Shown here: positions 16,322 through 37,216 of the stretch, in pieces
How positions within the stretch are numbered: the first letter of the stretch is position 1
Layout of the letters: every line of letters starts with the position of its first letter
Assembly: GCA_004321905.1 (NCBI GenBank)
Contig: SCQF01000046.1
Coordinates: 25,614 to 89,613 of the forward strand
Direction: 5' to 3'
Source of the DNA: Verrucomicrobiota bacterium
Lineage (GTDB): Bacteria > Verrucomicrobiota > Kiritimatiellia > CAIQIC01
Length of the DNA stretch: 64,000 nt
The notes under the pieces: generated by a model
What the model was told of the DNA's origin: nothing
Database searches by the model: none
The model's input: only the letters and a program-made list of their open reading frames with translations
Program-made: the position numbers and the translations under genes

Positions 16322-19300
16322 ATGACTGGCCGCCGCTCCGAATCCGTGCTCGTGGTTCATCCCACGTCGCTTGCGCTCCGGCAACTCCAACGCCGCACGC
16401 TGACGCACGTAGGTTTCTTCGACGCGCGCGGTCACATCACCTTCGCCGGTTTGCTCAATAGCTGTGCCGAAGCTGCGCGGCAGGCCGGTTTGCTGGCGGG
16501 CCGAAGGTCGGCCTCGGATTTGGACTATGAAATGCTGCTACTGGAGACCGCCCAGCAGTTCCGTGCAAAATCCGCCGCCCAGCAAGGCCCGCTGGCCGCC
16601 CTCGCACAGCAAGCTTTGGAAGACACGCTTGACCAACTGATCGCCTTCCTCGCGCCGCTGGCCGATCGCATCGCCGATGCTCTCGCGATACTGGCGCGCG
16701 GCACACCCAAGAACCGCGCGCTCGCTACGCTCTATCAGGAGTTTCAAGCCGCTGCTAACGCGATGGACGTGAGCACAGAGGCCGATGAAAACGCAGCCAT
16801 TCTGCGCTTGTTGCGCGGTGACTGCACTGCGTGGCCCGCCGTCTTGCACGAAGCCACCGCCGTGCGCTTCGTCGCCGTACGTGCCATCACGCCGATGCTG
16901 GAAAGCGTCAGCCACGCGCTGGTCGGGAAACCAGGTGGCACACAGGTACAGATCGAGCATATTTTGGAAGAACACGAGCAGGAATGGTGGGGTGAAAAAT
17001 TCCTGGCGGGTTCCTGTCGGCTTTTGTTCGGAACGGAAAGCGCCGCCGAGGATGCCGCCTGCCATGCGGCGCAGACATGGAGCGTAGTCACCAGCCTACG
17101 CGAAGCCTACGCAATGCGCGATCCCGGCCTCGCCGCCGAAGCGCGCACGAACGTCGGCTTCTCCTGTTCCGCTGGTCTCTATGGTGAAGTGGAAGACCTC
17201 GCGCGCCGAATTTGCTGGGAATTGGAGCAACCGGACGCTCATCTGCGACCCGAAGAGATCGCGCTCGTCGTGCCCAACGTGGGCCAATATGCCGATGCCA
17301 TCGCTGACGTTTTCCAGCGCTTCCAGTTGCCCTATCACTTCCGCCGCGGCAATGCCGTGCTCGCCGCGCCGGTGACACAGGCGATTCTGCGCCTGCTGGA
17401 AGTTCGCGCCACGCGCAGTCGCGACGCTTTTTGTGCGTTGCTCGAAAGTCCGTGGCTGAAGTGGGAAAGAATACAGGAGACAGAATACAGAAGTCAGAAG
17501 CCAGAGGTCACTGAACAGCTATCCGCTATCCGCTATCCGCCATCTGCCCTCGCCGATTCCATCCGCCGCGCCGGGATTGAACCAGAAATGCCGGAGGCCG
17601 CGGTGCTCGCACTGCGTGTCCGTAATTTCCTCCTCGCTAAACGCCCGCCAGCAACGGACGCCCAAGCTATCGGCGATTTTGCGGCGCAAGTGTTTCGGCT
17701 GCTTTACGACAAAAACTCGGAACGTCGCCCACTCACCAAACTATGCAACCAACTGATCTCAGAACTTCGTCAAACGTTTGGCGTAGAAGGCCAAGTCCGG
17801 CAGTTTCTACAAAATAGTTTCGCGTCCGATGACCTCACGCGCCAAGCCGCGTTGTTCAATAGCCGCGCCTTGACCGCCGTCATCGCGCAACTGGAAACCC
17901 TCGGCAAACATAAGGCCGAGACCACAATGACGTGGGCCGAGCTGCTCGCGCTCTTGCGGCGCGTGTTGCGTAACGTGACGGTTGCCGCCGGCAGCGCCGA
18001 CGAGTCCGGCGTCTGGGTTCTCAATCCGCACGACGCGGCGGGCCTACATTTCCGCGTCACGCTCATCGCCGGGCTGAACGCCGGACGCTTCCCCGCCCTA
18101 CCCGCGCCCAGTCCGGTGTTTAGCGACGCCGAATTGCGGCAGTTGCGCGAGGCGTTGACCGCTTTACCGCAAACCGCGCTGGCACCGTCCGTGGCGCGGC
18201 GCAGCCAAGATAATCTGCTGTTTTTGACCACGCTGGCGACGGCGAGCGAACGGCTGGTGTTTTCCTATCAAAGCCGCGACGAAACAGGCGAAGAATTGCA
18301 ACCTTCAATCTGCTTTGCCACCGCATGGCGGCTCGCCGGCTGGCCAAGTTGGGAGAAGTTACCGTCGCAACCGCCTGATCCCTATGATCGCTGGCGCCTG
18401 AAGGTCGCGCCGGAAATTTTCCGCGAATTCTGGGAAGCCGCGCGAAACGGCAAGGACCTGCCCATCTGGCAACGTAAACCCTTTCACGGCGAATCGTTCC
18501 TCGCCACCCGCCCGCTGGCGCTCTGCCGTGCGGCGGATGAAGCGCGCCAACAAGCCGCACGTTCCCTTGCGGAGTGTAGGAGCCCGGCCCCTGCCGGGCG
18601 ACCTGCCGATGCCGTCAGCGAACTCGTCGCCCGCAGCCTGACGATGGAGGCGGAGCGCACCCGCATCTTCACGCAGCAGGCTTTGCAGCCAAACCAGCCG
18701 CCAGAACACGGCACGCGGTTCGTCGGTTCCATCACAGCCCAGACCTGGCAACAGGTACGCCCCAAACCGCGAACCATTCCGGATTTCAGCGCCACGGAAT
18801 TGGAGACGCTGGCGACCTGTCCCTATAAATACTATCTGCAACGTGTGCTCCACCTCGAAGCGCTCAAAACCAACGAACAGGAAGCTACGCCGCTCGCGCT
18901 CGGTAGTCTGGTGCACCGCGTGATGCACCATGCGCTGCTACTCCTGCGCGGTGATCCACCGCCGCCAGATGCCCCAGCCGTACTGGCCGACATCCGCCAC
19001 GGCTTCGCCGATCTATGCCGTCCGGCGTTTGCAGTGCAAACCACCGACCACCCGTGGCGCATTATGGTCAAGGGGCCCGGTCGTCCGGTGGTGCAATTCC
19101 AGCCGGATAAGACCGAGCATTACGCTGAATTTATGGCGGCGGTGGCCAACGCCGAACTCGAAGCCGAGGAACAAGCGCTGGCTAGCATGATGCTCGGCGC
19201 CATCGAGCAACGCGGCGTCGTACGAACCAACTTGATCGCCGGTTGCAACAATCTGCTCCGCTTGAGCCTGCAACCCGCCGAATTCGATAAATCCATGCTG

Positions 19301-23890: not shown

Positions 23891-26080
23891 TCAAGCGCCC
23901 ACGACCGGCTTCAAGATCAACGCACCGAGCGGCGGCAAGGTGAGCACCACCGAGCACGACTGCCCCTGCCAAGGCGTACGCTCCGGCTGGACGCGCAACA
24001 CCGGCGCGGTGCCGCTACCACCAAAATGCGCGTCATCGGTGTTCAGCATGCAAACCAATGGCGCAGCCCCAGGCACACCAACACGATAACCAGCACGCGA
24101 CATGGGCGTGGCGTTGAAGACACAAACGAGATCGTCGCCCGGCGTTCGCCCACGGCGGATAAAACTGACGACGCTTTGCTGCGAGTCGTGGAAATCAATC
24201 CACTGAAAACCTTCCCACGAGAAGTCAACCTGGTGCAACGCCGGTTGGGCGCGCAGCAGGCCGTTGAGTTCACGCAAAAGCGCCTGGAGTCCTTGATGCG
24301 GCGCGTACTGGCACAGGTGCCAGTCCAAACTGCGATGGTAATCCCATTCATTCCACTGGCCAAATTCCGAGCCCATGAACAGCAGCTTCTTGCCGGGATG
24401 CGCATACATCAGCGCGTAGAGCAGGCGCAGGTTGGCGAATTGTTGCCAATGGTCGCCGGGCATCTTGGCCAACATCGCGCCTTTGCCGTGCACCACTTCA
24501 TCGTGCGAGAAGGGCAGAATGAAATTTTCGGTGAAGGCATAGAGCAACGAGAAGGTGATGTGGTTGTGGTGGAACTTGCGGTAGATGGGGTCCTTGGTGA
24601 AGTATTCCAACGTGTCGTGCATCCAGCCCATGTTCCATTTGAAATCAAAGCCAAGGCCGCCGAGATAAGTCGGACGTGACACCATGGGCCACGCGGTGGA
24701 TTCTTCGGCGAACGTCAGAAAGCCGGGATACTCGGTGTGTACCACCTCGTTGAACTTTTTCAGGAAACTCACAGCCTCCAGATTTTCGCGTCCACCAAAT
24801 TCGTTGGGGATCCACTCCCCTGCTTTGCGCGAATAATCCAGATAAAGCATACTCGCCACCGCATCCACGCGCAGTCCATCAATGTGAAAGACGTCGGCCC
24901 AATAGAGCGCGTTGGAGAGCAGAAACGCGCGTACCTCATTGCGACCATAGTTGAAAATCAGCGTACCCCAATCTTTGTGCTCACCCTTGCGCGGATCAGC
25001 ATGTTCATAGAGATGCGTACCGTCGAAATAGGCCAAACCGTGCCCGTCGCGCGGAAAATGCGCCGGCACCCAATCCACGAGCACACCAAGGCCGGCCTGG
25101 TGGCAGCGATCCACAAACTCCGCGAAATCCTCCGGCGATCCGAAACGCGAAGTCGGCGCATAATAGCCGATCGTTTGATAGCCCCACGACCCATCGAGCG
25201 GATGCTCCGACACCGGCAACAGCTCAATATGCGTGAACCCAAGGTCTTTGACGTACGGGATGAGTTGATCGGCCAACTCACGATACGTCAGCCAGCGATT
25301 ACGCTGCTCCGGCACACGCCGCCAAGAACCCAAATGAACCTCATAAACACTGATCGGCTGCTCGTGCCAATTCGTCCGTTGCCGATGCTCCAGCCATGCG
25401 CTGTCCCGCCACGTATGTTGCCGGACATCACAAACACGTGAAGCCGACTTCGGGCGTAGCTCCGAGGAAAAAGCATAAGGATCGGCCTTCGTCATCAACG
25501 AACCTTCGCGGCTCTTGATCTCAAATTTGTAAAGGTCACCAACCTTCAGACCCGGAATAAACAACTCCCATAAACCGGAACTTCCGCGGCTTTGCATCGG
25601 ATGAGACCGTCCATCCCAGCGATTGAAATCCCCGACCACGCTCACCCGCGCCCCGTTCGGGGCCCAGACCGCAAAGTGCACGCCCGCTTCGCCGGCGATG
25701 GTCAGCGGATGCGCGCCCATTTTGTCATAGGTGCGGTAATGCGTACCTTCGCCGAAAAGATACTGATCGAAATCCGTGATTTGTAGCGGGCACGCATACG
25801 GATCGGCGACTTCCCAACCGGTGCCATCCGAACGCGTCATGCGCAAACGATAAGCGAACGGTTCGCGGCCCGGCAACGTGATCTCGAACAAACCATCTTT
25901 GTGAATACGTTCCATCGCCTGTGCCACACCGGTGGCGGCCTCGATCACCTCCGCTTTGGCGGCGTGCGGCTGCATCGTACGGATACAAAGCCCAGCCTCC
26001 GTGACGTGCGGGCCGAGCACCTCGAACGGCGCATAGTGTTGGGCTTTGACGACGGCACGAATGGCGTCCTTGTTTATCAT
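23891..26080 (-). CDS. glgB: 1,4-alpha-glucan branching enzyme
   Basis: 729 aa; GH13 branching-enzyme architecture (N-terminal CBM48-like, catalytic [19 protein letters not shown]... motifs). Confidence 0.9.
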
Positions 26081-26107
26081 GCCGGAACAGTAACAGAGAA
26101 TTTCCGA

Positions 26108-26158
26108 CTTTCCAAGGTTTGGAAAATCTGCCGGTTACTTTTTCCAACCCTTGGAAAA
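26108..26158. repeat. Paired palindromic dispersed element
   Basis: ctttccaaggtttggaaaa-N12-tttttccaacccttggaaaa. Confidence 0.9.
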
Positions 26159-29086
26159 TTATGGCTGGCGCGTAAGTCTGAAGGACTGCGATGTTTGCGG
26201 CTGGAGTTCCACCGCGGCGGCACCTTCGATGTGCCAATTAGGCGGAGGCTGTAGGCGCGCTTTGAAGTCGCCATCCACACATAGCGTCAAAACGGCGTGA
26301 TCGCGATCTTGACGTTGCCACTGAATCTTTAGTGTACCGGTTGGCAACGGCGTGACGCCTTCGACACGTTCGAGGCTGTCGAGTTGCGGCGTGACAGTGA
26401 CGCGCTGTCCACCGGGTTCATCCAACCGCACGCCCAAAACATAGCGGCTAAGAATATAGGCCGGCCCGGCTGACCAGGCGTGGCAATAGCTGCGCGTGGG
26501 ATAACGACCACCGCCCAAATTGCCGTTGGCGAACGATTCCCAGAACGTTGTGGTCTGCCCATCCAACATGCCGCCCCACAAATCGCGGATGGTGGCCAAC
26601 ATCGGCTCGATCCGGCCTGTTTCGCCCAGCAATTCGAGGAGATAGAGCGTGGCGAAGGGACTGCCAAATTGGACGACGTTGTTCGTTGCCTGCCCCAGCG
26701 CAATCGCCAAAACGCGTTGCTGACGTTCCGGCGGCACCACGCCGTGGAGCAACGCAAGCGTGTTGATCTGTCGTGAAACACTGGTGCTGCGCGAACCATC
26801 GTTGTGGATGCTATCCACATAGGCGCCGCGCGTTTCGTCCCAAAGATAGCGGTTGATGTTTGCGGTCAGTTGATCGGCGGCGGTGCGATAGCGCGTGGCG
26901 GTCGGCGCGTCCTGCGCGACCTCGGCCATGCGTGCGCCCAGCTGCAAGGTATCCACGAGGAAGGTGTTGTTGTGCGTCACGCAATGCTGGTTGTTGTCGA
27001 GGCCGATCCAGTCGAAAAACTGCCACGCGGAAATGCTGAATAAGCCGGTCCGGGGATCAAGGTATTTGGTCAGGCAGTTGTTGAGCATCTGGCGGACGGC
27101 GGGATAGTAGGCCCTGACCAGGGTTCCCCGGTCGCCGGTGTACCAATAATTTTCCCAGCACATCCGCGCCCAGAGGAAACTCCACGCAGGGATGATGCGG
27201 CCCCAGCGGGTCGGGATGCGCATATGCACCAAGTCGTCGTGTTCCAAGCTTTGCGCGCCGAGCAATCCGCAGCGCTGCACCAACCGCGCGTCGCCAAACA
27301 TCATGTAGCACACCAACGCCTCGTTGCGGGCGTCGCCGAGCCAGAACGATTGCTCGTAGAGCGGACAATCCACGAAGGTGTCTTCCATGCAACAGAGCAT
27401 GGTTTGACGGCAAGTCTTCCAAACATTGTTAAGCAGCGCGTCCGACGAGACAAACGCACCGCGATCGGCCACCGGATAGTGTGTGAAGTTGCCGGTCACA
27501 CGTCGAATTTTTACATCGGCGGGCCGCGCGCGAACGGTCAAGGCCAGATAACGCCCGCCAAAATGCCGCATCGTCATATAACTCTGCCCGCCCGCCCGCG
27601 TGACGTAACGGAAGCTGGAACGGTTGCGCCACGACCACTGGGGCGTGCCTCCGTGGAAGCGCTCGAAAATATTCGCATCCAGCACCACGCCAGCAGGCGC
27701 GTCGAGCTCAAAACCGAGGTGCGCGTTATATTCCTGCCCCAGATCAATCATCAGCTCAAGATCATCGGTGCCGGCGGGGATCGTTGTGACTTCCGCGTTG
27801 TCAAAGACCAACCCTTGCGGATTGATAACCGTCCCCGGCCCGAGCACGTTACGGAAGCAGGTCAAACCATGCACATCTGTTGGAATCAATTCGCGCGGTT
27901 CAAGATCACGGAATTTTTGACGGAACGGTTGGAGCGCCGCCAGCGTGGAAGCCGCGCGCATTTTGCGCCACGTTTGATCCTTCGCCTGGAACGGCCCCGC
28001 CACACTCCACGGCCCTGTGCCACACGGATTACGCAAAGTAACTGACGCCTCGGCGTCCAGAACGAACTGAAATTCTTCCGTCTCCGACAGGTCATCGAGC
28101 ACCACAATGAGCGGATTAGCGCCTTGCTGCAGATGCACCGTGGCACGCTCCTGCTGCAAGAGGTCGCGCTCCACATCCACCGTCTGGCCGTTCAACCGAT
28201 ACGTGCCAAATTCAAACGCCGAACTCGGCCGCCCGATGAACGCATCCTGTTCTTTCTCGCTGACCAGTTCCGTGACGAGCACAAACCGATAGAAGTTGCG
28301 GTTGTCGGCCTTGCGCGCGATGCCCTGACAGCGGCCCAGATTGACGGTGGAAACGATTCGCGGCGCGCGCACCCGCTGTACCGATAGCACCGCGGCTGGA
28401 CGAATGCTTTCTTTTTCCAGTTGAGGAATTCCGCTCGGTTGTAAATCCTTCCATGGGCCAGCGAGTGCCGGTGCGATCTCCGCGGCGGCCAGCCAACCCG
28501 TCACGGTGCCATTCGGTTGCAACCAATCCACGCACGCTTGGCGGGCGTCATATTGTTCTTCAAACCCCACATGTGCGCTGACGACGGGACTACGCGGGTT
28601 GTGCGCGGGATCATCGCAGACTTGCCACGCACGATCTGTGACCAAAACATGTTGCCCCGCGGCATCTATCCAGTCCAACTGCGCCAAAAGTCCGGGCCGC
28701 ACCGCAATACTTTCCGCCGTGTCCCGCCCCCAATGATGCACACGCACACCGATCACGTTCACGCCGGGCTGCAAGAAACGCGCGATGTCTAACACGTCGT
28801 AGCGGTAATGCTCCGGGAAAGCACGCACGGGGCCATCGCCAACAAATTCACCGTTGATGAACACCTGATAACGCGTATCAGCCGTGATGGCCAACTGCGC
28901 CGACTGCACCGCGCCGTGGATGTCCCATTGCCGCCGGGCGAGCATCCAGCAGTTATAATCATCTTTGCTATCGGGCCGAAAAATCCATTGCGCCTGCCAA
29001 GCCGCTGGTTTTATGGGTTCGGCTGGTATCGCCGCCGGGGTGCCAAAATAAAGCAGGACCAGCAAAGGCCAGAGATTTTGTTTCAT
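26159..29086 (-). CDS. Secreted large glycoside hydrolase, alpha-L-rhamnosidase-like (GH78-type)
   Basis: About 975 aa after the signal peptide MKQNLWPLLVLLYFGTPAA. VDCPLYEQSFWLGDARNE resembles the GH78 DCPxRER-W-GD motif. Start set at the internal Met (29084-29086); the upstream ORF extension only reads through a palindromic element. Confidence 0.6.
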   Translation of the reverse strand: MKQNLWPLLVLLYFGTPAAIPAEPIKPAAWQAQWIFRPDSKDDYNCWMLARRQWDIHGAVQSAQLAITADTRYQVFINGEFVGDGPVRAFPEHYRYDVLDIARFLQPGVNVIGVRVHHWGRDTAESIAVRPGLLAQLDWIDAAGQHVLVTDRAWQVCDDPAHNPRSPVVSAHVGFEEQYDARQACVDWLQPNGTVTGWLAAAEIAPALAGPWKDLQPSGIPQLEKESIRPAAVLSVQRVRAPRIVSTVNLGRCQGIARKADNRNFYRFVLVTELVSEKEQDAFIGRPSSAFEFGTYRLNGQTVDVERDLLQQERATVHLQQGANPLIVVLDDLSETEEFQFVLDAEASVTLRNPCGTGPWSVAGPFQAKDQTWRKMRAASTLAALQPFRQKFRDLEPRELIPTDVHGLTCFRNVLGPGTVINPQGLVFDNAEVTTIPAGTDDLELMIDLGQEYNAHLGFELDAPAGVVLDANIFERFHGGTPQWSWRNRSSFRYVTRAGGQSYMTMRHFGGRYLALTVRARPADVKIRRVTGNFTHYPVADRGAFVSSDALLNNVWKTCRQTMLCCMEDTFVDCPLYEQSFWLGDARNEALVCYMMFGDARLVQRCGLLGAQSLEHDDLVHMRIPTRWGRIIPAWSFLWARMCWENYWYTGDRGTLVRAYYPAVRQMLNNCLTKYLDPRTGLFSISAWQFFDWIGLDNNQHCVTHNNTFLVDTLQLGARMAEVAQDAPTATRYRTAADQLTANINRYLWDETRGAYVDSIHNDGSRSTSVSRQINTLALLHGVVPPERQQRVLAIALGQATNNVVQFGSPFATLYLLELLGETGRIEPMLATIRDLWGGMLDGQTTTFWESFANGNLGGGRYPTRSYCHAWSAGPAYILSRYVLGVRLDEPGGQRVTVTPQLDSLERVEGVTPLPTGTLKIQWQRQDRDHAVLTLCVDGDFKARLQPPPNWHIEGAAAVELQPQTSQSFRLTRQP

Positions 29087-29142
29087 ACCGTGGGCTCCAG
29101 AAATGTACATTGCGGGAAAGCGTATAACAAAAACCGAACGGA

Positions 29143-29189
29143 CTTTCCAAGGTTTGGAAAACCGAAAGCACACTTTTTCCAAGCCTTGC
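29143..29189. repeat. Paired palindromic dispersed element (second unit truncated)
   Basis: ctttccaaggtttggaaaa-N13-tttttccaagccttg. Confidence 0.85.
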
Positions 29190-29240
29190 CCCCCCCACCC
29201 GCTCACGCTGCCGATAACATTCGACGTACGAGTCGCCGGC

Positions 29241-30227
29241 CTATTTCTCTTCCGGCTTCTCGAAATAAACGGTGAAGTGCACGTTGTCGAAGGTCACTTT
29301 GTAGCGGCTAAGCAGGCCGCGACCAATACGCACCGTTTTATCCGGTTCCAAGCCGCGCTCGCGCAGCGTGTAGGCGCGCACTTGCCGAAACACAAGATCG
29401 CCAAGGCTCACCTGCTTGACCGGACCGAGCGTCATCTTGGGCAGCGCGATTTCAAAATCGCCACCGGTATCGAGGATGATCGTCTCCTTTTTGCCATCCA
29501 CCATGCCATTGACGGTATAGACGCCCTCGCTCTCCGCCAGCGGCACCGCCGCGACGAGTTGATCCTCTTTGGGGTGGTAGGTCAGCGTGGAGGCCAGCGT
29601 GATCAGCCGATTATGGAAGTCAAACTGCGCGGTGGCAAAAGCGCGGAGTACATTGCAGCCGAGCACACCTTCCAAGGCGGGCTGTTCCACATTGCGCGCC
29701 AACGTACCCAGCGGACCGGAGGCGGTGCGGACATAGGCGATCGTATTTTCCATGCGCAACGTGTCGAAGCTGAGCGAACTCAATAGGCAGCCGTACCCGA
29801 GAATATCGTCCCGCACGTGCCGGGGTGTGATGCCATACGCGCGATCCGAACCGACGGTTTTGGCCTGCAAGGCCGCGGTGGACTCAAACCGCAACCAGCT
29901 TTCCTTGGCACTGGTATCCAGTAAAAAGGGCAACGCATCCTCGGACTTCAAGCCGGCGGCGATCACCGGCGCGCTATCACCCCGTTTGGACATGAACGGC
30001 AAGACGGCCTGCTGACCGGCATGCAAGCGATTGGCGCCCACAAACACAGGGCCATCATCAGAACTATACATGGTGATGGCATAACGTCGCGGATCTTCCG
30101 GCTTGCCAAAGAAGGCGCGCAACTTGTCTTCCGGCAACGGACGGATCGCGTCCGGCTGCGGCGAACGGCAGCCGACCAAACCCGCGACCAACAACAACGC
30201 TCCACATATGATTTTTTTCATAGTCAC
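29241..30227 (-). CDS. Lipoprotein with two retropepsin-like aspartyl protease modules
   Basis: Lipobox (LVAGLVGC); two D-T/S-G motifs (LLDTSAKES and IILDTGGDFEIA), as in clan AA aspartic peptidases. Confidence 0.5.
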   Translation of the reverse strand: MTMKKIICGALLLVAGLVGCRSPQPDAIRPLPEDKLRAFFGKPEDPRRYAITMYSSDDGPVFVGANRLHAGQQAVLPFMSKRGDSAPVIAAGLKSEDALPFLLDTSAKESWLRFESTAALQAKTVGSDRAYGITPRHVRDDILGYGCLLSSLSFDTLRMENTIAYVRTASGPLGTLARNVEQPALEGVLGCNVLRAFATAQFDFHNRLITLASTLTYHPKEDQLVAAVPLAESEGVYTVNGMVDGKKETIILDTGGDFEIALPKMTLGPVKQVSLGDLVFRQVRAYTLRERGLEPDKTVRIGRGLLSRYKVTFDNVHFTVYFEKPEEK

Positions 30228-30243
30228 TCCTCAAACTTTTGCT

Positions 30244-31239
30244 TCAACCCCGCTCGGGGCGCAGTTCGCGCATAAGCAGCGCCTGCACCGCCTGTCGCGG
30301 ATCTTTGCCCTCGTTGATCACCGCACAGACTTCCTCCGTGATCGGCGCCCGCAAAGCGTGCTGCACAGCCACCGTACGCGCCGTCGTGCAGGTCCAAACA
30401 CCTTCGGCCACCTGCGCCATGCTATCCAAAATCTGCTGGATGGATTCACCGCGCCCCAGCCGCTCGCCGACCATGCGGTTGCGGCTATGCCGGCTGGTGC
30501 AGGTCACGACCAAATCGCCCATCCCGCTCAAACCCGCAAACGTATCCGGCTGCGCGCCCAACGCCACCCCCAACCGCGTAATCTCCGCCAATCCGCGCGT
30601 CATCAGCGCCGCCTTCGTGTTGTCGCCATAACCAATACCATCACATACGCCCGCGGCGATGGCGATCACGTTCTTCAGCGCACCACCGAGTTCGACACCC
30701 GCTACATCCGACGAGGTATAGACCCGAAACGTTGCATGACTGAAAACTTTTTGCAGCGCCACCGCCTTGGCGTGATCGGCACAGGCGATCGTCACCGCCG
30801 TGGGAACACCGCGCGCTACTTCCTCGGCATGGCTCGGCCCGGAGAGCGCGGCAATCGGCGCATGGCCCAGCAATTCCTCGGCCACTTGCGTCATACGGCG
30901 TCCGGTTTCGCGGTCCAACCCCTTCGTCACGCTGACCACCAGCGCCTGCGGTAGAATTAGGGACGCAAATGACCGCAGCACGTCGCGGAAAAATTTTGAG
31001 GGCACCGCGAGCACGACCACCTCGGCGTCGCGCAACGCCTCGGCGCGATCCGCAATCCATGCAATTTCCTTGGGCAACTTCACGCCCGGCAGAAATTTCG
31101 TGTTCTCGCCGATGCGCCGGATTTCGTCCAAATAGTCCGGGAACGGTCCCCAGACGCGCACCGCGTGCCCCGCCTGCGCCAAGCCCACCGCCAGCGCCGT
31201 ACCCCAACCGCCATCGCCAATGACCGAAATTTTTTTCAT
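30244..31239 (-). CDS. gpsA: NAD(P)H-dependent glycerol-3-phosphate dehydrogenase
   Basis: MKKISVIGDGGWGTALAVGLAQAGH... Rossmann fold. Start set at MKKISVIG. Confidence 0.9.
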   Translation of the reverse strand: MKKISVIGDGGWGTALAVGLAQAGHAVRVWGPFPDYLDEIRRIGENTKFLPGVKLPKEIAWIADRAEALRDAEVVVLAVPSKFFRDVLRSFASLILPQALVVSVTKGLDRETGRRMTQVAEELLGHAPIAALSGPSHAEEVARGVPTAVTIACADHAKAVALQKVFSHATFRVYTSSDVAGVELGGALKNVIAIAAGVCDGIGYGDNTKAALMTRGLAEITRLGVALGAQPDTFAGLSGMGDLVVTCTSRHSRNRMVGERLGRGESIQQILDSMAQVAEGVWTCTTARTVAVQHALRAPITEEVCAVINEGKDPRQAVQALLMRELRPERG

Positions 31240-31242
31240 ATG

Positions 31243-31290
31243 AAGAATACAGAATTCAGGAAACAGGAGACAGAATAGCGGCGGAATAGG
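31243..31290 (+). repeat. Heptamer array (aataCAGaattCAGgaaaCAGgagaCAG) plus GAATAGCGG-type repeats at the 3' flank of the four-helix-bundle gene
   Basis: 7-nt periodicity with an invariant CAG; followed by aatagcggcggaatagg, which resembles the reverse complement of the CTATCCG repeats in addB. Confidence 0.75.
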
Positions 31291-31618
31291 CGTTGAGCAA
31301 CCGCCCAACTTCATCAAGTTGACCGACCAAACCGCCAGGATCACCATAATGCAAATCGTGCGCCAGAATTAGATAGTACCGGGATTCCTCCAAGGAGCCT
31401 TGGGCGATATTGAAAAACCGCTTTTTGTCAGCAGGGCCTTTTTTCTTAAACCCTTCGGCGATATTGGCCGGCACCGAAACGGCGGCGCGGCGGAGTTGTG
31501 AAGTCAGCCCATACAATTCAGCGCGCGGAAAATTTGCGGAAAAACTATAGATTCCCAAAACCCATTGATGCGCCTTTTGCCAGACGATCAAATCTTGAAA
31601 GGTTTTGGCCGCGGGCAT
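31256..31618 (-). CDS. Four-helix-bundle protein (23S rRNA intervening-sequence protein family, TIGR02436-like)
   Basis: MPAAKTFQDLIVWQKAHQWVLGIYSFSANFPRAELYGLTSQLRRAAVSVPANIAEGFKKKG...EESRYYLILAHDL is the canonical family signature. Wedged between plsY and gpsA and flanked by inverted heptamer arrays. Confidence 0.8.
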   Translation of the reverse strand: MPAAKTFQDLIVWQKAHQWVLGIYSFSANFPRAELYGLTSQLRRAAVSVPANIAEGFKKKGPADKKRFFNIAQGSLEESRYYLILAHDLHYGDPGGLVGQLDEVGRLLNAYSAAILSPVS

Positions 31619-31620
31619 AC

Positions 31621-32316
31621 TCACCGTTCTCCTCCCGTGTTCTGTATGCTGCCTCCTGTCTGCTGTGTTCTGTTTGCTGCTTCCTTTTTCCCAAACTGAA
31701 ATCTACTTTCTGTCCCCGTCATCAACCGCTGGATATTCGCCTTATGCCGAAAAACCACCAGCAAGCCTAGCAGCGTCAGCACAATCGGCGTGAGCAACTC
31801 TTGTCCACGATATAACCACCACCCCGCCGCTGGCACCACCAGCGCCGCACCCATCGAAGCGAACGAAACGTAACGTGAAGTCAGAAACAAAACCAGCCAG
31901 CCCAACACGCCGACGCCCACCGCCGCCGGTGCGACGCCGATCAACACGCCCGCGCTGGTCGCCACGCCCTTGCCGCCTTTGAATTTGAGATAGACCGGAA
32001 AATTGTGTCCCAAAATCGCGGCGACGCCACAGAGCAGTCCGAAGGAATTTTCCAAGCCTTGGAAAACCGGGATATCCGCTTTTCCCAGCATTGGAAAAAC
32101 CAACACTGGCACGAGGCCTTTCATCGCATCCAACGTGAAGGTGAGGATGCCCCACCCTTTGCCGACGCTACGGAAAACGTTGGTCGCACCGATATTCTTG
32201 CTGCCAACGGTACGGATATCCACGCCCTTGAGTCGTCCGATGAGCAGACCGAACGGAATCGCGCCCACCAGATAAGCGCCCGCCAGCCAGCCAATGAAAT
32301 TGAGCCATGCGTTCAT
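31621..32316 (-). CDS. plsY: Glycerol-3-phosphate acyltransferase PlsY (in-frame palindromic-element insertion)
   Basis: YLVGAIPFGLLIG...ILGHNFPVYLKFKGGKGVATSAGV are PlsY motifs. The loop FPMLGKADIPVFQGLENSFG is encoded by the element at 32048-32099. The C-terminal tail is read through the heptamer array. Confidence 0.85.
   Translation of the reverse strand: MNAWLNFIGWLAGAYLVGAIPFGLLIGRLKGVDIRTVGSKNIGATNVFRSVGKGWGILTFTLDAMKGLVPVLVFPMLGKADIPVFQGLENSFGLLCGVAAILGHNFPVYLKFKGGKGVATSAGVLIGVAPAAVGVGVLGWLVLFLTSRYVSFASMGAALVVPAAGWWLYRGQELLTPIVLTLLGLLVVFRHKANIQRLMTGTESRFQFGKKEAANRTQQTGGSIQNTGGER
31625..31690 (-). repeat. Heptamer array, inverted relative to 31243-31290, at the 5' flank of the four-helix-bundle gene
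   Basis: Plus strand reads CTGTATGCTGCCTCCTGTCTGCTGTGTTCTGTTTGCTGCTTC. The reverse complement is (NNNNCAG)x5 including acaggaggcagcatacagaa, close to acaggagacagaata at 31263-31277. Confidence 0.75.
32048..32099. repeat. Paired palindromic dispersed element, in-frame inside plsY
   Basis: ttttccaagccttggaaaa-N13-ttttcccagcattggaaaaa. Confidence 0.9.
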
Positions 32317-32404
32317 CGGCGCGATTGGATAGCACAACGACGCGCGTCCGGCGAGTTCCTTTTGACCCGCTTATTTTGGATAAGAAATTGTTTTAGCACA
32401 TCCG

Positions 32405-32525
32405 TTGCTGACGTGTTGTTTTTCGCCCATACTATGTCCCTGAAAAAGCACGGAGTCATTTTCGCAAGCCGTCCGGCCAAGCCAAACTTTGTTGTGTGAC
32501 AAATTTTAATGTGGGAAAGCGGACT
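32405..32525 (+). repeat. Upstream copy of a ~100-120-nt imperfect direct repeat (promoter/leader-like), 5' of the GH5-like gene
   Basis: tgacgtgttgtttttcgcccatactatgtccctgaaaaagcacggagtcattttcgcaagccgtccggccaagccaaac...gtgggaaagcggac aligns at about 75% identity with 33961-34083. Confidence 0.7.
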
Positions 32526-32700
32526 TTAGGTGGGGTTTGGTGCAACAGGACAAGACCGATACGTGGGATTCTTCTGTGGAAGAGTTAATAGCAGACTTGA
32601 CGCAATGCGGGTAGTCAAGGAGAGTGTGCAGATGAAAACCGATTCAGGAAAAAGCGAAACAGCATGTCCTTCGAATCCCGGCGATGCAGGCAGCTTCCGT

Positions 32701-33756
32701 ATGAGCCGCCGGCAGGCGATGACCTTGGGAGCATCCGTGGCCGGGATTGCGCTGCTGCCTTCGTTGGTCAAGTCGAAACCGGTCGGCGGACAGGACCAAC
32801 AAACGTCGCGCGTAACAGAATATAAGGATCTACGCGGGTTCAACTACCAACCGAGTTGGGGTGCCACGGGCGAAGGAATCTGGCTGCACTTCGACGAGGC
32901 GAAATGCGGGCAGGAACTCGACCAAATCCGGCGGTATTTCCCGAAATGCACTGTATTGAGGATTTGGCTTTCCTATCACGCTTGGGGGATTGACCGGCTC
33001 AAATTCCTCGCAGCGGCGGGCAAAATGGCGGCATTGATAAAGGAGCGTAAACTTCAGATGATGCCAGTTTATTTCAACGGCTGGGGTGCAGAGGGAATGC
33101 ATCCTTTCGGGAGTTTTGCGCAGCACTGGATTGGCAGTCAGAAACCATGGACGATTTATAAACAATACCTAACCGAAACGGTTCAGGAAATATCAGAAAA
33201 AGGAGATTTGCTGGCACACGACATTTCAAATGAGCCGTATAACGGCTATTACTGGGATGAAAAAATAAGAGGTGACATCACAGAGTTCCTGAAGGCAATG
33301 GCATCTGAAATCCGGTCCATCACTCCAGATACACCAATCGGCGTTGGTTCGCAGGGGACGTGGCTGGCCGATCTCGACATGCTCAACCCCTTCGTCGATA
33401 TTTTCTACATACATCCATATGTTTACGGCCGTTACAGCCAGCCCGATAAATTGGAGAAAAAACTTTCCGAATTCGACGGAATGATGGCCAAGCTCAGGCA
33501 GTTAAATAAGCCGGTCATTTCCAACGAGTGCTGCTGGGGCAGCAACAACGACGCCGGGCGCGCCGAAACCATCAAGCAAGAGCTGACGCTGCTGAAACAG
33601 CATGGCATCGGTTTCCTGCCCCACGCGGCTCACCATTCCTGGGTAGCGGATCTTCACCGGCCCCGTCCGGATTATAAAACATGGAGCATGTATATGGGGT
33701 TCATTGATCCGAATGGTTCCATCCGTTCGGGGCATGAAATCTATAACGAGTTTTGA
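32701..33756 (+). CDS. Tat-secreted glycoside hydrolase, clan GH-A (GH5-like); low-GC gene
   Basis: Twin-arginine signal (MSRRQAMTLGASVAGIALLP), NEP acid/base motif (DISNEPYNG), candidate nucleophile in PVISNECCWG. Local GC is about 50% against about 62% in the flanks. Confidence 0.62.
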   Translation: MSRRQAMTLGASVAGIALLPSLVKSKPVGGQDQQTSRVTEYKDLRGFNYQPSWGATGEGIWLHFDEAKCGQELDQIRRYFPKCTVLRIWLSYHAWGIDRLKFLAAAGKMAALIKERKLQMMPVYFNGWGAEGMHPFGSFAQHWIGSQKPWTIYKQYLTETVQEISEKGDLLAHDISNEPYNGYYWDEKIRGDITEFLKAMASEIRSITPDTPIGVGSQGTWLADLDMLNPFVDIFYIHPYVYGRYSQPDKLEKKLSEFDGMMAKLRQLNKPVISNECCWGSNNDAGRAETIKQELTLLKQHGIGFLPHAAHHSWVADLHRPRPDYKTWSMYMGFIDPNGSIRSGHEIYNEF

Positions 33757-33799
33757 GCTTATCAATGGAGAAATGAAGGACGAGAGCGTTTCCCTAAAT

Positions 33800-33900
33800 G
33801 ATGTGGCCGGCTGAAGCCCCGGCGTAGGATGCGGACTCCGTCCGCATCAGGAAAAGCGACCGGAGGTCGCTTCTACGTGGCGCGTGGCCAACATCACGTT
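33800..33900 (+). other. Structured GC-rich element downstream of the GH5-like gene (two tandem hairpins inside an outer stem)
   Basis: cgtaggatgcggactccgtccgcatcaggaaaagcgaccggaggtcgcttctacg: hairpins GATGCGGAC-TCC-GTCCGCATC and AGCGACC-GGA-GGTCGCT enclosed by CGTAG/CTACG. Confidence 0.45.
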
Positions 33901-33960
33901 TGTTTCGCAGCAGCTGCGCTACATGATTACCAGAAACGATCGAGGCTGACAGCAGCAGGA

Positions 33961-34083
33961 TTTAACCGTTGACGCACTGTTTTCCGACCGCGCTATGCTC
34001 CTAAAAAATCATGGAGCCATTTTTGCGAACCACTCGGCCAAGTCAGCCCCTCTTCCAGAACGAATTTTCAGGCGGGAGAGCGG
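33961..34083 (+). repeat. Downstream copy of the ~100-120-nt imperfect direct repeat, within the purA 5' region
   Basis: tgacgcactgttttccgaccgcgctatgctcctaaaaaatcatggagccatttttgcgaaccactcggccaagtcagcc...ggcgggagagcggac. Confidence 0.7.
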
Positions 34084-34229
34084 ACGTGGCGTGAGAATTG
34101 GCGCATAAGAACAAGCTTGGTGTGCGATGACCGCCTACGGCGGATCTTCCGCGCCGGGCGAATTCCTTTTGACGCGGTTTTTGGGTTGACCGACGCGAAG
34201 GCTTTGCATAACGTCGCCCGGCATTTGGC

Positions 34230-35566
<1,337 letters not shown>

Positions 35567-35576
35567 AGTTGACCGG

Positions 35577-35627
35577 TTTTCCAAGGCTTGGAAAATGGAA
35601 AGTGATGTTTTTCCAGACCTTGGAAAA
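35577..35627. repeat. Paired palindromic dispersed element (purA-uppS intergenic)
   Basis: gttttccaaggcttggaaaa-N13-tttttccagaccttggaaaag. Confidence 0.9.
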
Positions 35628-35639
35628 GTTGCCGAAAAC

Positions 35640-36356
35640 ATGAGCGACGAAAAACAAAATATGCCGCACCATGTGGCGATCATCATGGACGGCAATGGCC
35701 GCTGGGCCAAAGCGCGTGGCTGGCCGCGCCTGAAGGGCCATCAGGAAGGTGCCAACTCGCTCCGTGCCATTCTCCGCGCCTGTCGCGACCACGGGATCAA
35801 GTATCTCACGGTATATGCGTTCAGCTCTGAAAACTGGGTACGCCCAAAAAGCGAAGTTAGTGGACTGATGAACCTGCTGAAGACGTTTCTCCGTAAGCAG
35901 GAGCATGAATTGCACGAAAACAAAGTGCGCCTGCGCATGATCGGGCGGATGGCAGACCTGCCTGCCGCCGTGCAACAGGAACTGGAGCGCGTCATGGCTG
36001 CCACCGCGCACTATACCGAGCATCACCTCATTCTCGCGTTGAGTTACGGTTCACGCACGGAAATCACCGAGGCCTGTCGCGCCATCGCGCGCGAAGTGAA
36101 AGCCGGCCAACTCGATCCGGAAAAAATCACAGAGCAGACAGTGGCGCAGCAGCTCTATCTGCCGGATGTGCCCGATCCCGATCTGCTGATTCGGACGAGT
36201 GGCGAAATGCGCATCAGCAATTTCCTGCTCTGGCAAATTTCCTATAGCGAACTCTATGTGACGCCGGTCTTCTGGCCCGACTTCCGCGAGCAAGAGTTCG
36301 CCGCCGCGCTCGCCGACTACGCCAAACGTCATCGCCGTTTTGGAGACATCAAGTGA
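35640..36356 (+). CDS. uppS: Isoprenyl transferase / undecaprenyl-diphosphate synthase
   Basis: HVAIIMDGNGRWAKARG...YAFSSENW motif of cis-prenyltransferases. Start set at MSDEKQNM, downstream of the palindromic element. Confidence 0.9.
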   Translation: MSDEKQNMPHHVAIIMDGNGRWAKARGWPRLKGHQEGANSLRAILRACRDHGIKYLTVYAFSSENWVRPKSEVSGLMNLLKTFLRKQEHELHENKVRLRMIGRMADLPAAVQQELERVMAATAHYTEHHLILALSYGSRTEITEACRAIAREVKAGQLDPEKITEQTVAQQLYLPDVPDPDLLIRTSGEMRISNFLLWQISYSELYVTPVFWPDFREQEFAAALADYAKRHRRFGDIK

Positions 36357-37216
36357 AGGTGCCCGCGCTGATCCAACGCACCGTGAGCGGTGTGCTGATT
36401 ATCGCCGCGTTATTGGGCGTGTTGTTTTGGTTGCCGCCCATCGGGATGCTCCCCATTCTGCTCGCAGTGGCCGCGCTCGCCTCCTTCGAGTTTTTCAAGC
36501 TATTGCCGGCGGCAAACATTCCGCGCTATCCATGGATCGGCACGCTGTGCGGCTTGCTGTTCCTGGTGGGTGTCTGGTTTGAATACACGCGGCCCGACAT
36601 GGTGCGGCCCGTGATCGAACCGGCCTTGCTCTTTGCACTTGTGACCACGATTCTCATCCGCCAATTCCCGCAGAAAGAAAATCCGCGCCCGCTGGAAACG
36701 ATGGCGGGGACGATCATGGGCGTACTCTATGCCCCGTTTCTCTTGAGCTTCTTTCCGCGCCTAATGTTCCAGTGGGGTTCCGCCGGTGGTGGCTGGCTGA
36801 TCCTCTACCTTGTTTTCGTGGTGAAGATGAGCGACGTCGGCGCGTATTTCGTCGGCTGTTCATTGGGACGCCACAAACTCTGCCCACGCATCTCACCCAA
36901 GAAAACGTGGGAAGGCTTTTTCGGCGGCCTCGTCTTTGCGCTGACGACCAGCGTCTTCTGGTGGAAGTTGGCCCACGGTCACGTCGGCGCGCTAGCGATC
37001 ACGTTGCCGCACGCGCTGGCGTTGGGTCTATTGCTTGCGCTGATGGGCGTGCTCGGCGACCTCGCCGAATCCATTCTCAAGCGCGCCGCCAACGTCAAGG
37101 ATTCAGCCAGTTATATCCAAGGCATGGGCGGCATCCTCGACGTGCTCGATAGCTTGCTGTTGGCCGCACCCACGCTTTATGTCTACGCCCTGCTCTTTCT
37201 GAAACCCACAAGTTGA
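36353..37216 (+). CDS. cdsA: Phosphatidate cytidylyltransferase
   Basis: Multi-TM protein with the CdsA signature (KTWEGFFGG...); uppS-cdsA-rseP synteny. Confidence 0.85.
   Translation: MKVPALIQRTVSGVLIIAALLGVLFWLPPIGMLPILLAVAALASFEFFKLLPAANIPRYPWIGTLCGLLFLVGVWFEYTRPDMVRPVIEPALLFALVTTILIRQFPQKENPRPLETMAGTIMGVLYAPFLLSFFPRLMFQWGSAGGGWLILYLVFVVKMSDVGAYFVGCSLGRHKLCPRISPKKTWEGFFGGLVFALTTSVFWWKLAHGHVGALAITLPHALALGLLLALMGVLGDLAESILKRAANVKDSASYIQGMGGILDVLDSLLLAAPTLYVYALLFLKPTS

What the first reader, a model, noticed from the sequence alone, without database searches (positions are those of the whole stretch)
31243..31690. Four-helix-bundle ('23S rRNA IVS') gene wedged between plsY and gpsA, flanked by inverted NNNNCAG heptamer arrays
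A canonical four-helix-bundle protein gene (the family first found inside 23S rRNA intervening sequences, also linked to retroelement/DGR loci) sits alone between two lipid-synthesis genes. It is bracketed by arrays of 7-nt-periodic repeats with an invariant CAG:
- 3' flank, plus strand: aataCAG aattCAG gaaaCAG gagaCAG
- 5' flank, reverse strand: caaaCAG aacaCAG cagaCAG gaggCAG cataCAG

The two arrays are in inverted orientation and share the core ACAGGAG[A/G]CAG[A/C]ATA, like imperfect terminal inverted repeats of a tiny cassette. Both arrays are read through by the neighbouring ORFs. The 5'-flank array is read through by plsY, extending its C-terminus. The 3'-flank array overlaps the C-terminal codons of the four-helix-bundle ORF itself.

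Heptanucleotide tandem repeats of this kind are reminiscent of cyanobacterial STRR sequences, though I cannot tie this organism to cyanobacteria.
Basis: partly seen in the sequence, partly recalled or inferred. Interest (0 to 1): 0.65.

Follow-up and report, generated by a model that had tools for sequence, protein, structure and literature searches.

The report
rRNA-intervening-sequence-type gene cassette inside an operon
A small four-helix-bundle gene held between two inverted arrays of 7-base repeats sits between two lipid-synthesis genes; it has the same build as the "intervening sequences" known from 23S rRNA genes, which suggests those elements belong to a widespread, horizontally spread cassette family that also wedges into ordinary operons.

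Summary
All genes here are on the minus strand, in the order plsY, four-helix-bundle gene (PF05635/TIGR02436), gpsA. The small gene is bracketed by inverted NNNNCAG heptamer arrays (6 four-unit matches in the window against 0.02 expected).

This is not a local oddity:
- Among 79 relatives from more than 12 phyla, 51 have a CAG array just upstream and 57 have a CTG array starting about 21 nt before the stop. Background is 0.5 arrays per 10 kb.
- Cognate arms pair better than non-cognate arms.
- ORF-less hairpin derivatives exist.
- A genuine 23S rRNA intervening sequence (Azospirillum, found here; Coxiella, literature) has the same heptamer arms around the same gene family.
- Relatives of this organism show the plsY-gpsA junction full, occupied by a different four-helix-bundle gene, truncated, reduced to solo arrays, or clean.
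- The gene is under strong purifying selection (dN/dS 0.04-0.08).

Best reading: a promoterless, selfish "ORF in a hairpin" cassette of the intervening-sequence type, riding on the host operon. Whether the arms act as RNA (RNase III stem, translational relay) or as DNA is unresolved. The wider pattern appears undescribed in the literature I could search.

The parts
31630..31686 (-). 5' arm: array of about 7 heptamers in NNNNCAG register on the sense strand (GCAG CAAACAG AACACAG CAGACAG GAGGCAG CATACAG AACACGG, then GAGGAG). It is translated as the C-terminal tail of PlsY.
   Evidence: Heptamer number differs in the orthologous loci L002 and L003.
31256..31624 (-). Four-helix-bundle gene, 122 aa from GTG 31624 (120 aa from ATG 31618, as in the public annotation P0001). 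The stop TGA is at 31258-31256. The GTG overlaps the plsY stop (GTGA).
   Evidence: PF05635 114.5 bits, TIGR02436 106.9 bits. Nearest solved structure is 2GSC (XCC0516), E = 3e-16. dN/dS is 0.04-0.08 against orthologous copies.
31243..31276 (-). 3' arm: the reverse-complement array on the sense strand (ATTCTG TCTCCTG TTTCCTG AATTCTG TATTCTT). It encodes the last residues ILSPVS, supplies the stop codon, and ends 3 nt before the gpsA ATG.
   Evidence: It pairs with the 5' arm in the MFE and centroid folds. The arm duplex has z = -2.6.
31621..32316 (-). Upstream host gene plsY. Its reading frame runs through the 5' arm, adding about 20 residues (EAANRTQQTGGSIQNTGGER) to the C-terminus.
   Evidence: PF02660 187 bits, TIGR00023 169.6 bits; the domain ends at residue about 205-212 of 238. 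Clean plsY-gpsA junctions in L094, L098, L106 and L121 lack this tail.
30244..31239 (-). Downstream host gene gpsA. Its ATG lies 16 nt after the stop of the small ORF, and no Shine-Dalgarno-like motif lies between them.
   Evidence: PF01210/PF07479, NF000942 441 bits; sequence.
17468..17544 (+). Solo, gene-less array inside an AddB-like ORF (16322-19912). About 7 CAG-type units are followed directly by CCG/CTG-type units (CCGCTAT x3, CCGCCAT, CTGCCCT). It shares the 15-mer ACAGGAGACAGAATA with 31264-31278. It is read in frame and does not form a hairpin.
   Evidence: It lies in a variable linker that is 20-30 residues shorter in distant homologues.

Best explanation
The segment 31243-31686 is one copy of a widespread, horizontally spread cassette: a promoterless four-helix-bundle gene (S23p / PF05635) carried in the loop of a long hairpin. 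The two arms are inverted arrays of heptamers (unit R-A-K-N-C-A-G on the 5' side, its complement on the 3' side). This is the same build as the ORF-carrying intervening sequences of 23S rRNA. Here it sits in the junction of a translationally coupled operon (plsY-gpsA) instead of an rRNA helix.

Shown:
- family membership of the gene;
- array architecture across phyla;
- co-variation of the two arms;
- ORF-less derivatives;
- presence, absence and decay states at this very site;
- purifying selection on the protein;
- identity of architecture with an rRNA intervening sequence.

Inferred mechanism:
- The cassette has no promoter or terminator of its own and is transcribed with the host operon.
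- In the transcript the arms form a closing stem of about 25-35 bp. In rRNA copies this stem is cut by RNase III.
- The arms also act as frame-independent adaptors, because 7 is coprime with 3. The 5' array is open in all three frames and rich in GGAG, so an upstream ORF can run through it (as plsY does) and ribosomes are delivered to the start codon.
- The 3' array carries TGA or other stops in most frames and CUCC anti-Shine-Dalgarno-like motifs, so translation ends just before the downstream start (16 nt before gpsA).
- Together these features would make the insertion nearly harmless to the host operon.
- Array length changes by replication slippage.

How the cassette moves between sites and genomes is not known.
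For: Gene identity.

Arrays significant.

Family-wide architecture:
- 80 genomic loci from Cyanobacteria, Verrucomicrobia, Acidobacteria, Bacteroidota, Nitrospirota, Planctomycetes, Chloroflexi, Firmicutes, Desulfobacterota and others, at 62-74% protein identity.
- 51 of 79 have upstream CAG arrays, 57 of 79 have 3' CTG arrays, and 44 have both. Background is 0.53 per 10 kb.
- The median inverted repeat is 26 nt with 23 matches.
- 84 of 120 top homologues end in an array-encoded I-L-x4-6 tail.

Arms co-vary:
- Cognate duplexes average -38.8 kcal/mol against -32.3 for non-cognate pairs; 0 of 10000 permutations reach the cognate mean.
- TAG-for-CAG variants change in both arms together (L040, L061, L080, L053).

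ORF-less hairpins, some keeping ATG...ATTCTGA. Two of them flank nuoI in L063.

rRNA link:
- The Coxiella helix-45 intervening sequence has GACAGAT x3 plus GACAGAA just before the S23p ATG, variable copy number among strains, and a 28-bp stem cut by RNase III (PMC4990558).
- The Azospirillum lipoferum 23S intervening sequence found here has CAG/CGG heptamer arms around a PF05635-like ORF and folds with z = -10.4.

States of the plsY-gpsA site in relatives:
- full cassette: window, L001-L007, L088;
- a different PF05635 gene with a CTG array: L091;
- truncated gene with a 12-unit array: L092;
- footprint or solo arrays: L089, L090, L093;
- clean junctions: L094, L098, L106, L121.

Other support:
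- Purifying selection: dN/dS 0.04-0.08 against 0.10-0.14 for gpsA.
- No promoter-like site, no terminator at the borders, no Rfam family.
- Coding asymmetry: 51 of 53 5' arrays are open in all frames and 45 of 53 contain GGAG; 45 of 61 3' arrays are closed in at least 2 frames.
- Neighbours are co-oriented: 61 of 65 upstream, 56 of 67 downstream (crude ORF calling).
- Closing stem present in both MFE and centroid folds of the window element.
- Independent reports of such genes wedged between cmr3 and cmr2 in Pleurocapsa (PMC3936711).
- Copies on conjugative cyanobacterial plasmids.
Against: - No sign that the arms are selected as sense-strand RNA. Mismatches in the arms are A:C (70) about as often as G:U (57). 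Sense and antisense arm duplexes are equally stable (-38.8 against -38.5 kcal/mol, p = 0.6).
- The window copy has the weakest stem of its clade (z = -2.6 against -5.6 and -6.5). The whole-element fold is not unusual (z = -1.6).
- RNase III cleavage inside the 5' arm would remove the plsY stop codon here, which argues against efficient cleavage in this copy.
- About a third of the relatives lack a strict array of 3 or more units on one side.
- No transposase, target-site duplication or other mobility machinery was identified.
- The loci used for the enrichment figures were chosen because they hold the gene, so only the background rate is unbiased.
- Strong purifying selection fits a host-beneficial gene as well as a selfish one.
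Confidence: 0.62

Rival explanations
1. The arms work at the DNA level. They would be terminal inverted repeats (or hairpin or cruciform sites) recognised by a trans-acting recombinase or transposase. The cassette would then be a non-autonomous mobile element like a MITE, REP/BIME or integron cassette, and any RNA stem would be a by-product.
For: - There is no G:U over A:C bias and no sense/antisense asymmetry in arm pairing.
- ORF-less hairpin derivatives resemble MITEs.
- The same site is occupied by two different PF05635 genes in sister clades, as expected for cassette exchange at a hot spot.
- Copies occur on conjugative plasmids.
Against: - No recombinase gene travels with the cassette.
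- No target-site duplication is visible when filled and empty plsY-gpsA junctions are compared.
- rRNA copies are experimentally processed as RNA.
- The strict placement of the start codon and the stop codon inside the arms, and the frame properties of the arms, point to a role in expression.
Confidence: 0.22
2. This is an ordinary host gene plus slippage-prone microsatellites. The four-helix-bundle gene would be a vertically inherited member of the plsY-gpsA operon in this clade, and the heptamers would be neutral simple-sequence repeats that grew from Shine-Dalgarno-like sequence.
For: - The gene and its position are conserved in relatives at 85-89% identity, with very low dN/dS.
- Heptamer number varies as expected for slippage.
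- Heptamer simple-sequence repeats are known to be over-represented in bacteria (PMC4692102).
Against: - The same gene with the same inverted arrays occurs in unrelated contexts in more than 12 phyla at 62-74% identity.
- The arms co-vary.
- Most plsY-gpsA junctions lack both the gene and the arrays.
- Sister clades carry a different PF05635 gene, truncations and footprints at the same site.
- The identical architecture occurs inside 23S rRNA.
Confidence: 0.06
3. The cassette is a regulatory device co-opted by the host. The stem and the SD / anti-SD-like arrays would tune the ratio or timing of PlsY and GpsA synthesis (translational coupling, mRNA stability), and the small protein would serve lipid metabolism.
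For: - There is a tight GTGA overlap with plsY and a 16-nt gap to gpsA.
- Purifying selection is strong.
- The 5' arrays are rich in GGAG and the 3' arrays in CTCC.
Against: - Neighbours of the cassette in other genomes are functionally unrelated: nuo, cmr, his, aspartokinase and conjugation genes.
- Clean junctions work without it, for example the ATGA overlap in L098.
Confidence: 0.08
4. The gene is the accessory protein (Avd) of a diversity-generating retroelement.
For: There is a weak match to the Avd model NF033474 (25.9 bits). PF22296 bAvd is co-annotated on some homologues.
Against: - The score is far below the cut-off of 80 bits.
- The neighbours are plsY, gpsA, a rhamnosidase-like gene and two genes with no Pfam match; none is a reverse transcriptase.
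- No template/variable repeat pair was found within +/-5 kb.
Confidence: 0.02

Closest known systems
ORF-carrying intervening sequences of 23S rRNA (Coxiella burnetii helix 45, Leptospira, Xanthomonas and Brucella relatives; Azospirillum lipoferum copy L168 3455-3925 found here)
   Same: - Same gene family (S23p / PF05635).
- Tandem heptamers in NNNNCAG register directly before the start codon (GACAGAT x3 in Coxiella; CAG/CGG units in Azospirillum).
- Inverted complementary 3' arm and a closing stem of about 28-32 bp.
- Heptamer copy number varies between strains.
- Element size of about 430-470 nt.
   Different: - The host site is an intercistronic junction of a protein-coding operon, not an rRNA helix.
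- The upstream ORF is translated through the 5' arm.
- The ORF is under strong purifying selection, whereas the Coxiella ORF is reported to be decaying and untranslated.
- RNase III excision is untested here.
- The stem of the window copy is weaker (z = -2.6 against -10.4 for the whole Azospirillum element).
Avd, accessory protein of diversity-generating retroelements
   Same: Homologous four-helix-bundle fold family. By homology to 2GSC and bAvd it probably forms a pentameric ring (literature).
   Different: There is no reverse transcriptase and no template/variable repeat pair, the score is below the Avd model cut-off, and the gene is flanked by heptamer arrays instead.
Bacterial heptamer simple-sequence repeats: cyanobacterial STRR / GGGGA(T/C)T, Xanthomonas GGGAATC, Beggiatoaceae TAACTGA repeats
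   Same: - Tandem 7-nt units in intergenic and intercistronic DNA, often just upstream of start codons.
- Sometimes found as inverted pairs.
- Variable length.
- Scattered phylogenetic distribution that suggests horizontal spread (PMC4692102; PMC4679880).
   Different: - The unit sequence differs (R-A-K-N-C-A-G).
- These arrays come as inverted pairs around one specific gene family.
- None of those papers links the repeats to four-helix-bundle genes.
MITEs / REP-BIME elements and integron gene cassettes
   Same: - A small promoterless unit bounded by imperfect inverted repeats.
- ORF-less derivatives exist.
- It sits in operons in the host's orientation.
- Different cargo variants occupy the same site.
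   Different: - No transposase, RAYT or integrase is associated.
- No target-site duplication was seen.
- The arms are register-free tandem arrays rather than a defined terminal sequence or attC site.

Membership tests
PF05635 / TIGR02436 four-helix-bundle protein (23S rRNA intervening-sequence protein, S23p) | Profile score above the curated cut-offs | tested here: met
   PF05635 scores 114.5 bits (cut-off 33.8). TIGR02436 scores 106.9 bits (cut-off 24)..
PF05635 / TIGR02436 four-helix-bundle protein (23S rRNA intervening-sequence protein, S23p) | Conserved R-x3-S-x3-N-x2-E motif noted for XCC0516 homologues | tested here: met
   The window protein has LRRAAVSVPANIAEG, aligned to LRRAAVSIPSNIAEG of 2GSC. 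The motif is described in PMC3936711.
23S rRNA intervening sequence (IVS) element | Inserted in a helix of the 23S (or 16S) rRNA gene | tested here: not met
   There is no rRNA or any other Rfam match in 29000-34000. The flanks are plsY and gpsA.
23S rRNA intervening sequence (IVS) element | Terminal inverted repeats that close the element in a long stem | tested here: met
   34-nt arms, 76% complementary. The closing stem appears in the MFE and centroid folds. The arm duplex has z = -2.6.
23S rRNA intervening sequence (IVS) element | Tandem heptamers directly 5' of the S23p start, with variable copy number | tested here: met
   Compare Coxiella and Azospirillum.
23S rRNA intervening sequence (IVS) element | Excision from the transcript by RNase III | not testable with these tools
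Diversity-generating retroelement (Avd component) | Avd model score above cut-off | tested here: not met
   NF033474 scores 25.9 bits against a cut-off of 80.
Diversity-generating retroelement (Avd component) | Adjacent reverse transcriptase and template/variable repeat pair | tested here: not met
   Neighbours were identified. The only direct repeats of 40 nt or more within 26000-37000 belong to an unrelated palindromic family.
Cyanobacterial STRR-type heptamer repeats | Unit sequences of the described families (CCCCAGT / GGGGA(T/C)T and relatives) | tested here: not met
   The units here are GAGTCAG, AATTCAG, GAGACAG and similar. The described units are given in PMC4692102.
Transposon-like element with terminal inverted repeats (MITE) | Target-site duplication flanking the inverted repeats | tested here: inconclusive
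   No direct duplication is evident by eye when filled junctions are compared with clean ones (L094, L098, L106, L121). However, the junctions come from diverged genomes.
Integron gene cassette | attC site and a nearby integron integrase / attI | not tested
   No search for an integrase was made. The arms are tandem arrays, which is unlike attC.

The most novel reading that the evidence does not exclude
Intervening sequences of rRNA are not an rRNA peculiarity. They would be one landing place of a cross-phylum class of selfish 'ORF-in-a-hairpin' cassettes, with ORF-less MITE-like derivatives. Their heptamer-array arms would be frame-independent adaptors: a 7-nt period presents the same signal in all three reading frames every 21 nt. 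The 5' arm is open in every frame and full of ribosome-binding motifs. The 3' arm closes the frames and mimics the anti-Shine-Dalgarno sequence. The two arms pair into an RNase III-type stem. This design would let a promoterless gene wedge into any operon junction, coding-sequence linker or rRNA helix with little polar damage. It would also explain reported 'associations' of this gene family with CRISPR-Cas loci as hitch-hiking.
Probability: 0.35. Interest if true: 0.8.

Novelty: new variant of a known kind. Interest (0 to 1): 0.62.

Why it matters
The origin, mobility and purpose of rRNA intervening sequences have been open questions since about 1990.

- If the same cassette lives in ordinary operons in many phyla, with filled, decayed and empty sites available for comparison, those questions become testable outside the awkward rRNA context. 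The protein is clearly under selection in this setting.
- It gives a concrete design principle (heptamer arrays as frame-independent insulators) that could be tested and reused.
- It cautions against reading functional meaning into the frequent neighbourhood of "four helix bundle protein" genes with cas, nuo, conjugation or lipid genes.
- It flags common annotation errors: N-terminal extensions that translate the 5' array, and C-terminal tails of upstream genes.

Tried and rejected
- RNA-strand signal: G:U against A:C mismatch counts and sense against antisense arm stability showed no asymmetry. I therefore cannot claim selection at the RNA level.
- Whole-element fold z-score for the window copy is weak (-1.6). 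Only the arm-to-arm duplex is significant.
- Exact-sequence look-up of the 122-aa GTG-start form found nothing. The 120-aa form did.
- A word-indexed search with the AddB-like fragment found nothing. The exhaustive search was used instead.
- No copies in the phage collection.
- No Rfam family, promoter-like site or flanking terminator.
- The solo array at 17468 is not a hairpin.
- Identity with STRR or TAACTGA repeats is rejected on unit sequence.
- The DGR reading is rejected.
- Literature searches for a prior description of heptamer-flanked four-helix-bundle cassettes outside rRNA found none. The library lacks most subscription-journal papers, including the original Leptospira and TIGRFAM descriptions.
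- A formal covariance model of the arms was not attempted, because tandem arrays have no unique alignment register.
Full report
**What is in the window**

All three genes lie on the minus strand, in the order plsY (31621-32316), a 122-aa ORF (31256-31624) and gpsA (30244-31239).

- Its nearest solved relative is the pentameric XCC0516 of Xanthomonas (2GSC, E = 3e-16).
- On the sense strand the gene is preceded by GCAG CAAACAG AACACAG CAGACAG GAGGCAG CATACAG AACACGG.
- It runs at its 3' end into ATTCTG TCTCCTG TTTCCTG AATTCTG TATTCTT.
- Four consecutive CAGs at 7-nt spacing occur 6 times in the 64-kb window against 0.02 expected.
- The two arrays are inverted repeats (34 nt, 76% complementary).
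- plsY is translated through the whole 5' array, and its TGA overlaps the GTG of the small ORF.
- The last seven codons (ILSPVS) and the stop of the small ORF are array sequence, and the gpsA ATG follows 16 nt later.
- No promoter-like site, no terminator at the borders and no Rfam family are found.

**The arrays are a property of the gene family, not of this locus**

The protein has thousands of close relatives. Eighty genomic loci at 62-74% identity come from Cyanobacteria, Verrucomicrobia, Acidobacteria, Bacteroidota, Ignavibacteriota, Nitrospirota, Planctomycetes, Chloroflexi, Firmicutes, Desulfobacterota, Elusimicrobia and others.

- In 79 usable loci, 51 have a CAG array of 3 or more units within 100 nt upstream, 57 have a CTG array at the 3' end, and 44 have both. 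The flanking 1.19 Mb holds only 0.53 arrays per 10 kb.
- The 3' arm typically starts 20-22 nt before the end of the stop codon, at ATT CTG. That is why 84 of 120 top homologues end in I-L plus 4-6 residues.
- Annotated N-terminal extensions such as SRIQEPES or VRSQESGVRS are translations of the 5' array.
- The unit consensus is R-A-K-N-C-A-G. The commonest units are GAGTCAG, AATTCAG, GAGACAG, AAGACAG and AAGTCAG.
- The best ungapped inverted repeat has a median of 26 nt with 23 matches.
- The two arms of one locus fit each other better than arms from different loci (-38.8 against -32.3 kcal/mol; 0 of 10000 permutations).
- Lineages that use TAG instead of CAG have CTA instead of CTG on the other side (L040, L061, L080, L053).

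**Derivatives without the gene**

Of 202 arrays in these loci plus the window, 134 lie within 150 nt of a four-helix-bundle ORF.

- Many of the rest are tight pairs: a CAG array, a 14-27-nt loop, then a CTG array. Examples are L009 1502-1572, L011 8508-8577 and 11433-11515, L055 15472-15560, L079 9766-9831 and L086 2795-2874.
- Some of these still contain ATG ... ATTCTGA, which looks like an internal deletion of the ORF.
- In L063 two such hairpins flank nuoI inside the nuo operon.
- The third array of the window (17468-17544) is of this gene-less kind. CAG-type units are followed directly by CCG/CTG-type units, read in frame inside an AddB-like ORF. It lies in a linker that is 20-30 residues shorter in distant homologues, and it no longer folds.

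**The link to rRNA intervening sequences**

Warrier et al. (PMC4990558) describe the Coxiella burnetii helix-45 intervening sequence as follows:

- an AGAAGA motif followed by three tandem heptamers GACAGAT and a fourth, GACAGAA, immediately before the S23p ATG;
- different repeat numbers among strains;
- a 28-bp terminal inverted-repeat stem cut by RNase III at the first repeat.

In NNNNCAG register this is the same array.

A tblastn hit on Azospirillum lipoferum plasmid AZO_p2 lies inside a 23S rRNA gene, about 1150 nt from its 5' end.

- Its ORF is flanked by CAGAGGA CGGATGA CAGAGGA CGGAGGA CAGAAAG on one side and CCGTCCT CTGTCTT CTGTCAT CCGTCTT CTGAG on the other.
- The element folds with a closing stem of 25+ bp and z = -10.4.

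The window element is therefore an intervening-sequence-type cassette that sits in an operon instead of an rRNA helix.

**History of this particular site**

- Contigs encoding proteins 85-89% identical keep plsY, the cassette and gpsA, with the 3' arm nearly unchanged. The number of 5' heptamers ranges from about 4-5 (L002) through 6-7 (window) to 8 (L003).
- A metagenome scan with GpsA gave 80 further loci.
- L088 (GpsA 86% identical) has the cassette.
- L091 (80%) has a different, divergent PF05635 gene ending in FLLTSAR* inside a CTG array (34.4 bits).
- L092 (81%) has a 12-unit CAG array, only the first ~40 codons of that other gene, and a short CTG array.
- L089 (81%) retains only CAG...CTGATCTCTGACCT.
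- L090 (80%) has a solo 5-unit CTG array.
- L093 (74%) has a solo 5-unit CAG array.
- L094, L098, L106 and L121 (69% or less) have plsY directly against gpsA with no arrays. In L098 the two genes overlap as ATGA.

The junction has thus been occupied, exchanged or re-occupied, eroded and left with footprints. That is the behaviour of a mobile or at least dispensable insert.

Even so, the resident gene is under stronger purifying selection than its essential neighbour (dN/dS 0.04-0.08 against 0.10-0.14). The protein is therefore made and matters, either to the element or to the host.

**How it most likely works (inference)**

- The cassette has no promoter of its own, and in other genomes it sits co-oriented with both neighbours (61 of 65 and 56 of 67; crude ORF calling). 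It is probably expressed by read-through.
- The arms have complementary coding properties.
  - 51 of 53 5' arrays are open in all three frames, and 45 of 53 contain GGAG.
  - 45 of 61 3' arrays are closed in at least two frames, and most contain CTCC.
- Because 7 is coprime with 3, such arrays present the same signal in every frame. An upstream ORF can run harmlessly into the 5' arm, as plsY does. Whatever is being translated stops in the 3' arm just before the next start, as happens before gpsA.
- Pairing of the arms gives a stem that in rRNA copies is an RNase III substrate.
- In the window copy the stem is present in both MFE and centroid folds, and the arm duplex is better than 299 of 300 shuffles.

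What the data do not show is selection on the sense RNA.

- A:C and G:U mismatches are equally common.
- Sense and antisense duplexes are equally stable.
- A DNA-level role of the arms therefore remains a serious rival.
- RNase III cleavage in this copy would also strip plsY of its stop codon.
- The means of transposition or transfer is unknown. Copies on conjugative cyanobacterial plasmids offer a vehicle between cells; none were found in phages.

**Comparison with what is known, and novelty**

- The gene family, its presence in rRNA intervening sequences, and the heptamers in the Coxiella element are published.
- The family's scattered presence in cas operons has been noted and read as a functional association (PMC3936711; PMC10910872).
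- Other bacterial heptamer repeats (STRR / GGGGA(T/C)T, GGGAATC, TAACTGA) have different units and have not been tied to this gene.
- I found no description of the following points: the general architecture of inverted heptamer arrays around the ORF across phyla, the ORF-less derivatives, the occupancy states of a site, or the equivalence of operon and rRNA copies. The searchable library is incomplete.

I classify the finding as a new variant of a known kind: an intervening-sequence-type cassette in a protein operon. It is not a DGR component.

Noticed in passing
window, about 35 sites, e.g. 4437/4469, 6524/6556, 12586/12618, 16242/16274, 26109/26141, 32049/32081, 35578/35610, 42059/42090, 52094/52126, 62290/62322: An 18-nt palindrome, TTTTCCAAGSNTTGGAAAA, is extremely over-represented (66 strand matches against 0.01 expected). 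It usually occurs as pairs 32 nt apart, in the manner of a REP/BIME-like dispersed element.
   Followed up: partly
window 32049-32098 (inside plsY): One pair of these palindromes lies inside the plsY coding sequence (encoding ...VFQGLENSFGLL...). The PlsY Pfam match spans 185 residues for a 164-position model. plsY therefore seems to carry a second in-frame repeat insertion besides the heptamer tail.
   Followed up: no
window 17468-17544 in ORF 16322-19912: A gene-less heptamer array (CAG-type units followed by CCGCTAT-type units) is translated in frame within a variable linker of an AddB-like PD-(D/E)XK nuclease. The 72%-identical homologue P0121 has an even longer insert at the same spot.
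   Followed up: partly
window 31256-31624 compared with L002 2181-2546 and L003 4001-4366: Synonymous divergence of the cassette gene (dS 0.9-1.3) is higher than that of the adjacent gpsA (0.5-0.7), although dN is similar or lower. Possible causes are replacement or transfer of the cassette between lineages, or different codon constraints.
   Followed up: no
L063 13326-13410 and 13991-14073: Two ORF-less heptamer hairpins bracket nuoI inside the nuo operon of an Opitutaceae MAG. This shows that the gene-less form also lives in intercistronic spacers.
   Followed up: partly
L091 1-223 and L092 300-561: Sister-clade contigs carry a different, divergent PF05635 gene (complete C-terminus in L091, truncated N-terminus in L092) at the same plsY-gpsA junction. 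Their arrays use CGGTCAG/AGGTCAG and CTGACCT/CTGATCT units.
   Followed up: partly
L169 2501-2866 (Trichormus variabilis ATCC 29413 plasmid C): A 70%-identical copy sits co-oriented in a gene row just upstream of a TrbI/VirB10 gene on a conjugative plasmid. In all, 33 plasmid records, mostly cyanobacterial, hold relatives.
   Followed up: no
L007 1468-2538; proteins P0040, P0047, P0060 and others: Gene callers are misled by the arrays. In L007 gpsA is called with an upstream start overlapping the cassette. Many homologues are annotated with N-terminal extensions that are simply the translated 5' array.
   Followed up: no
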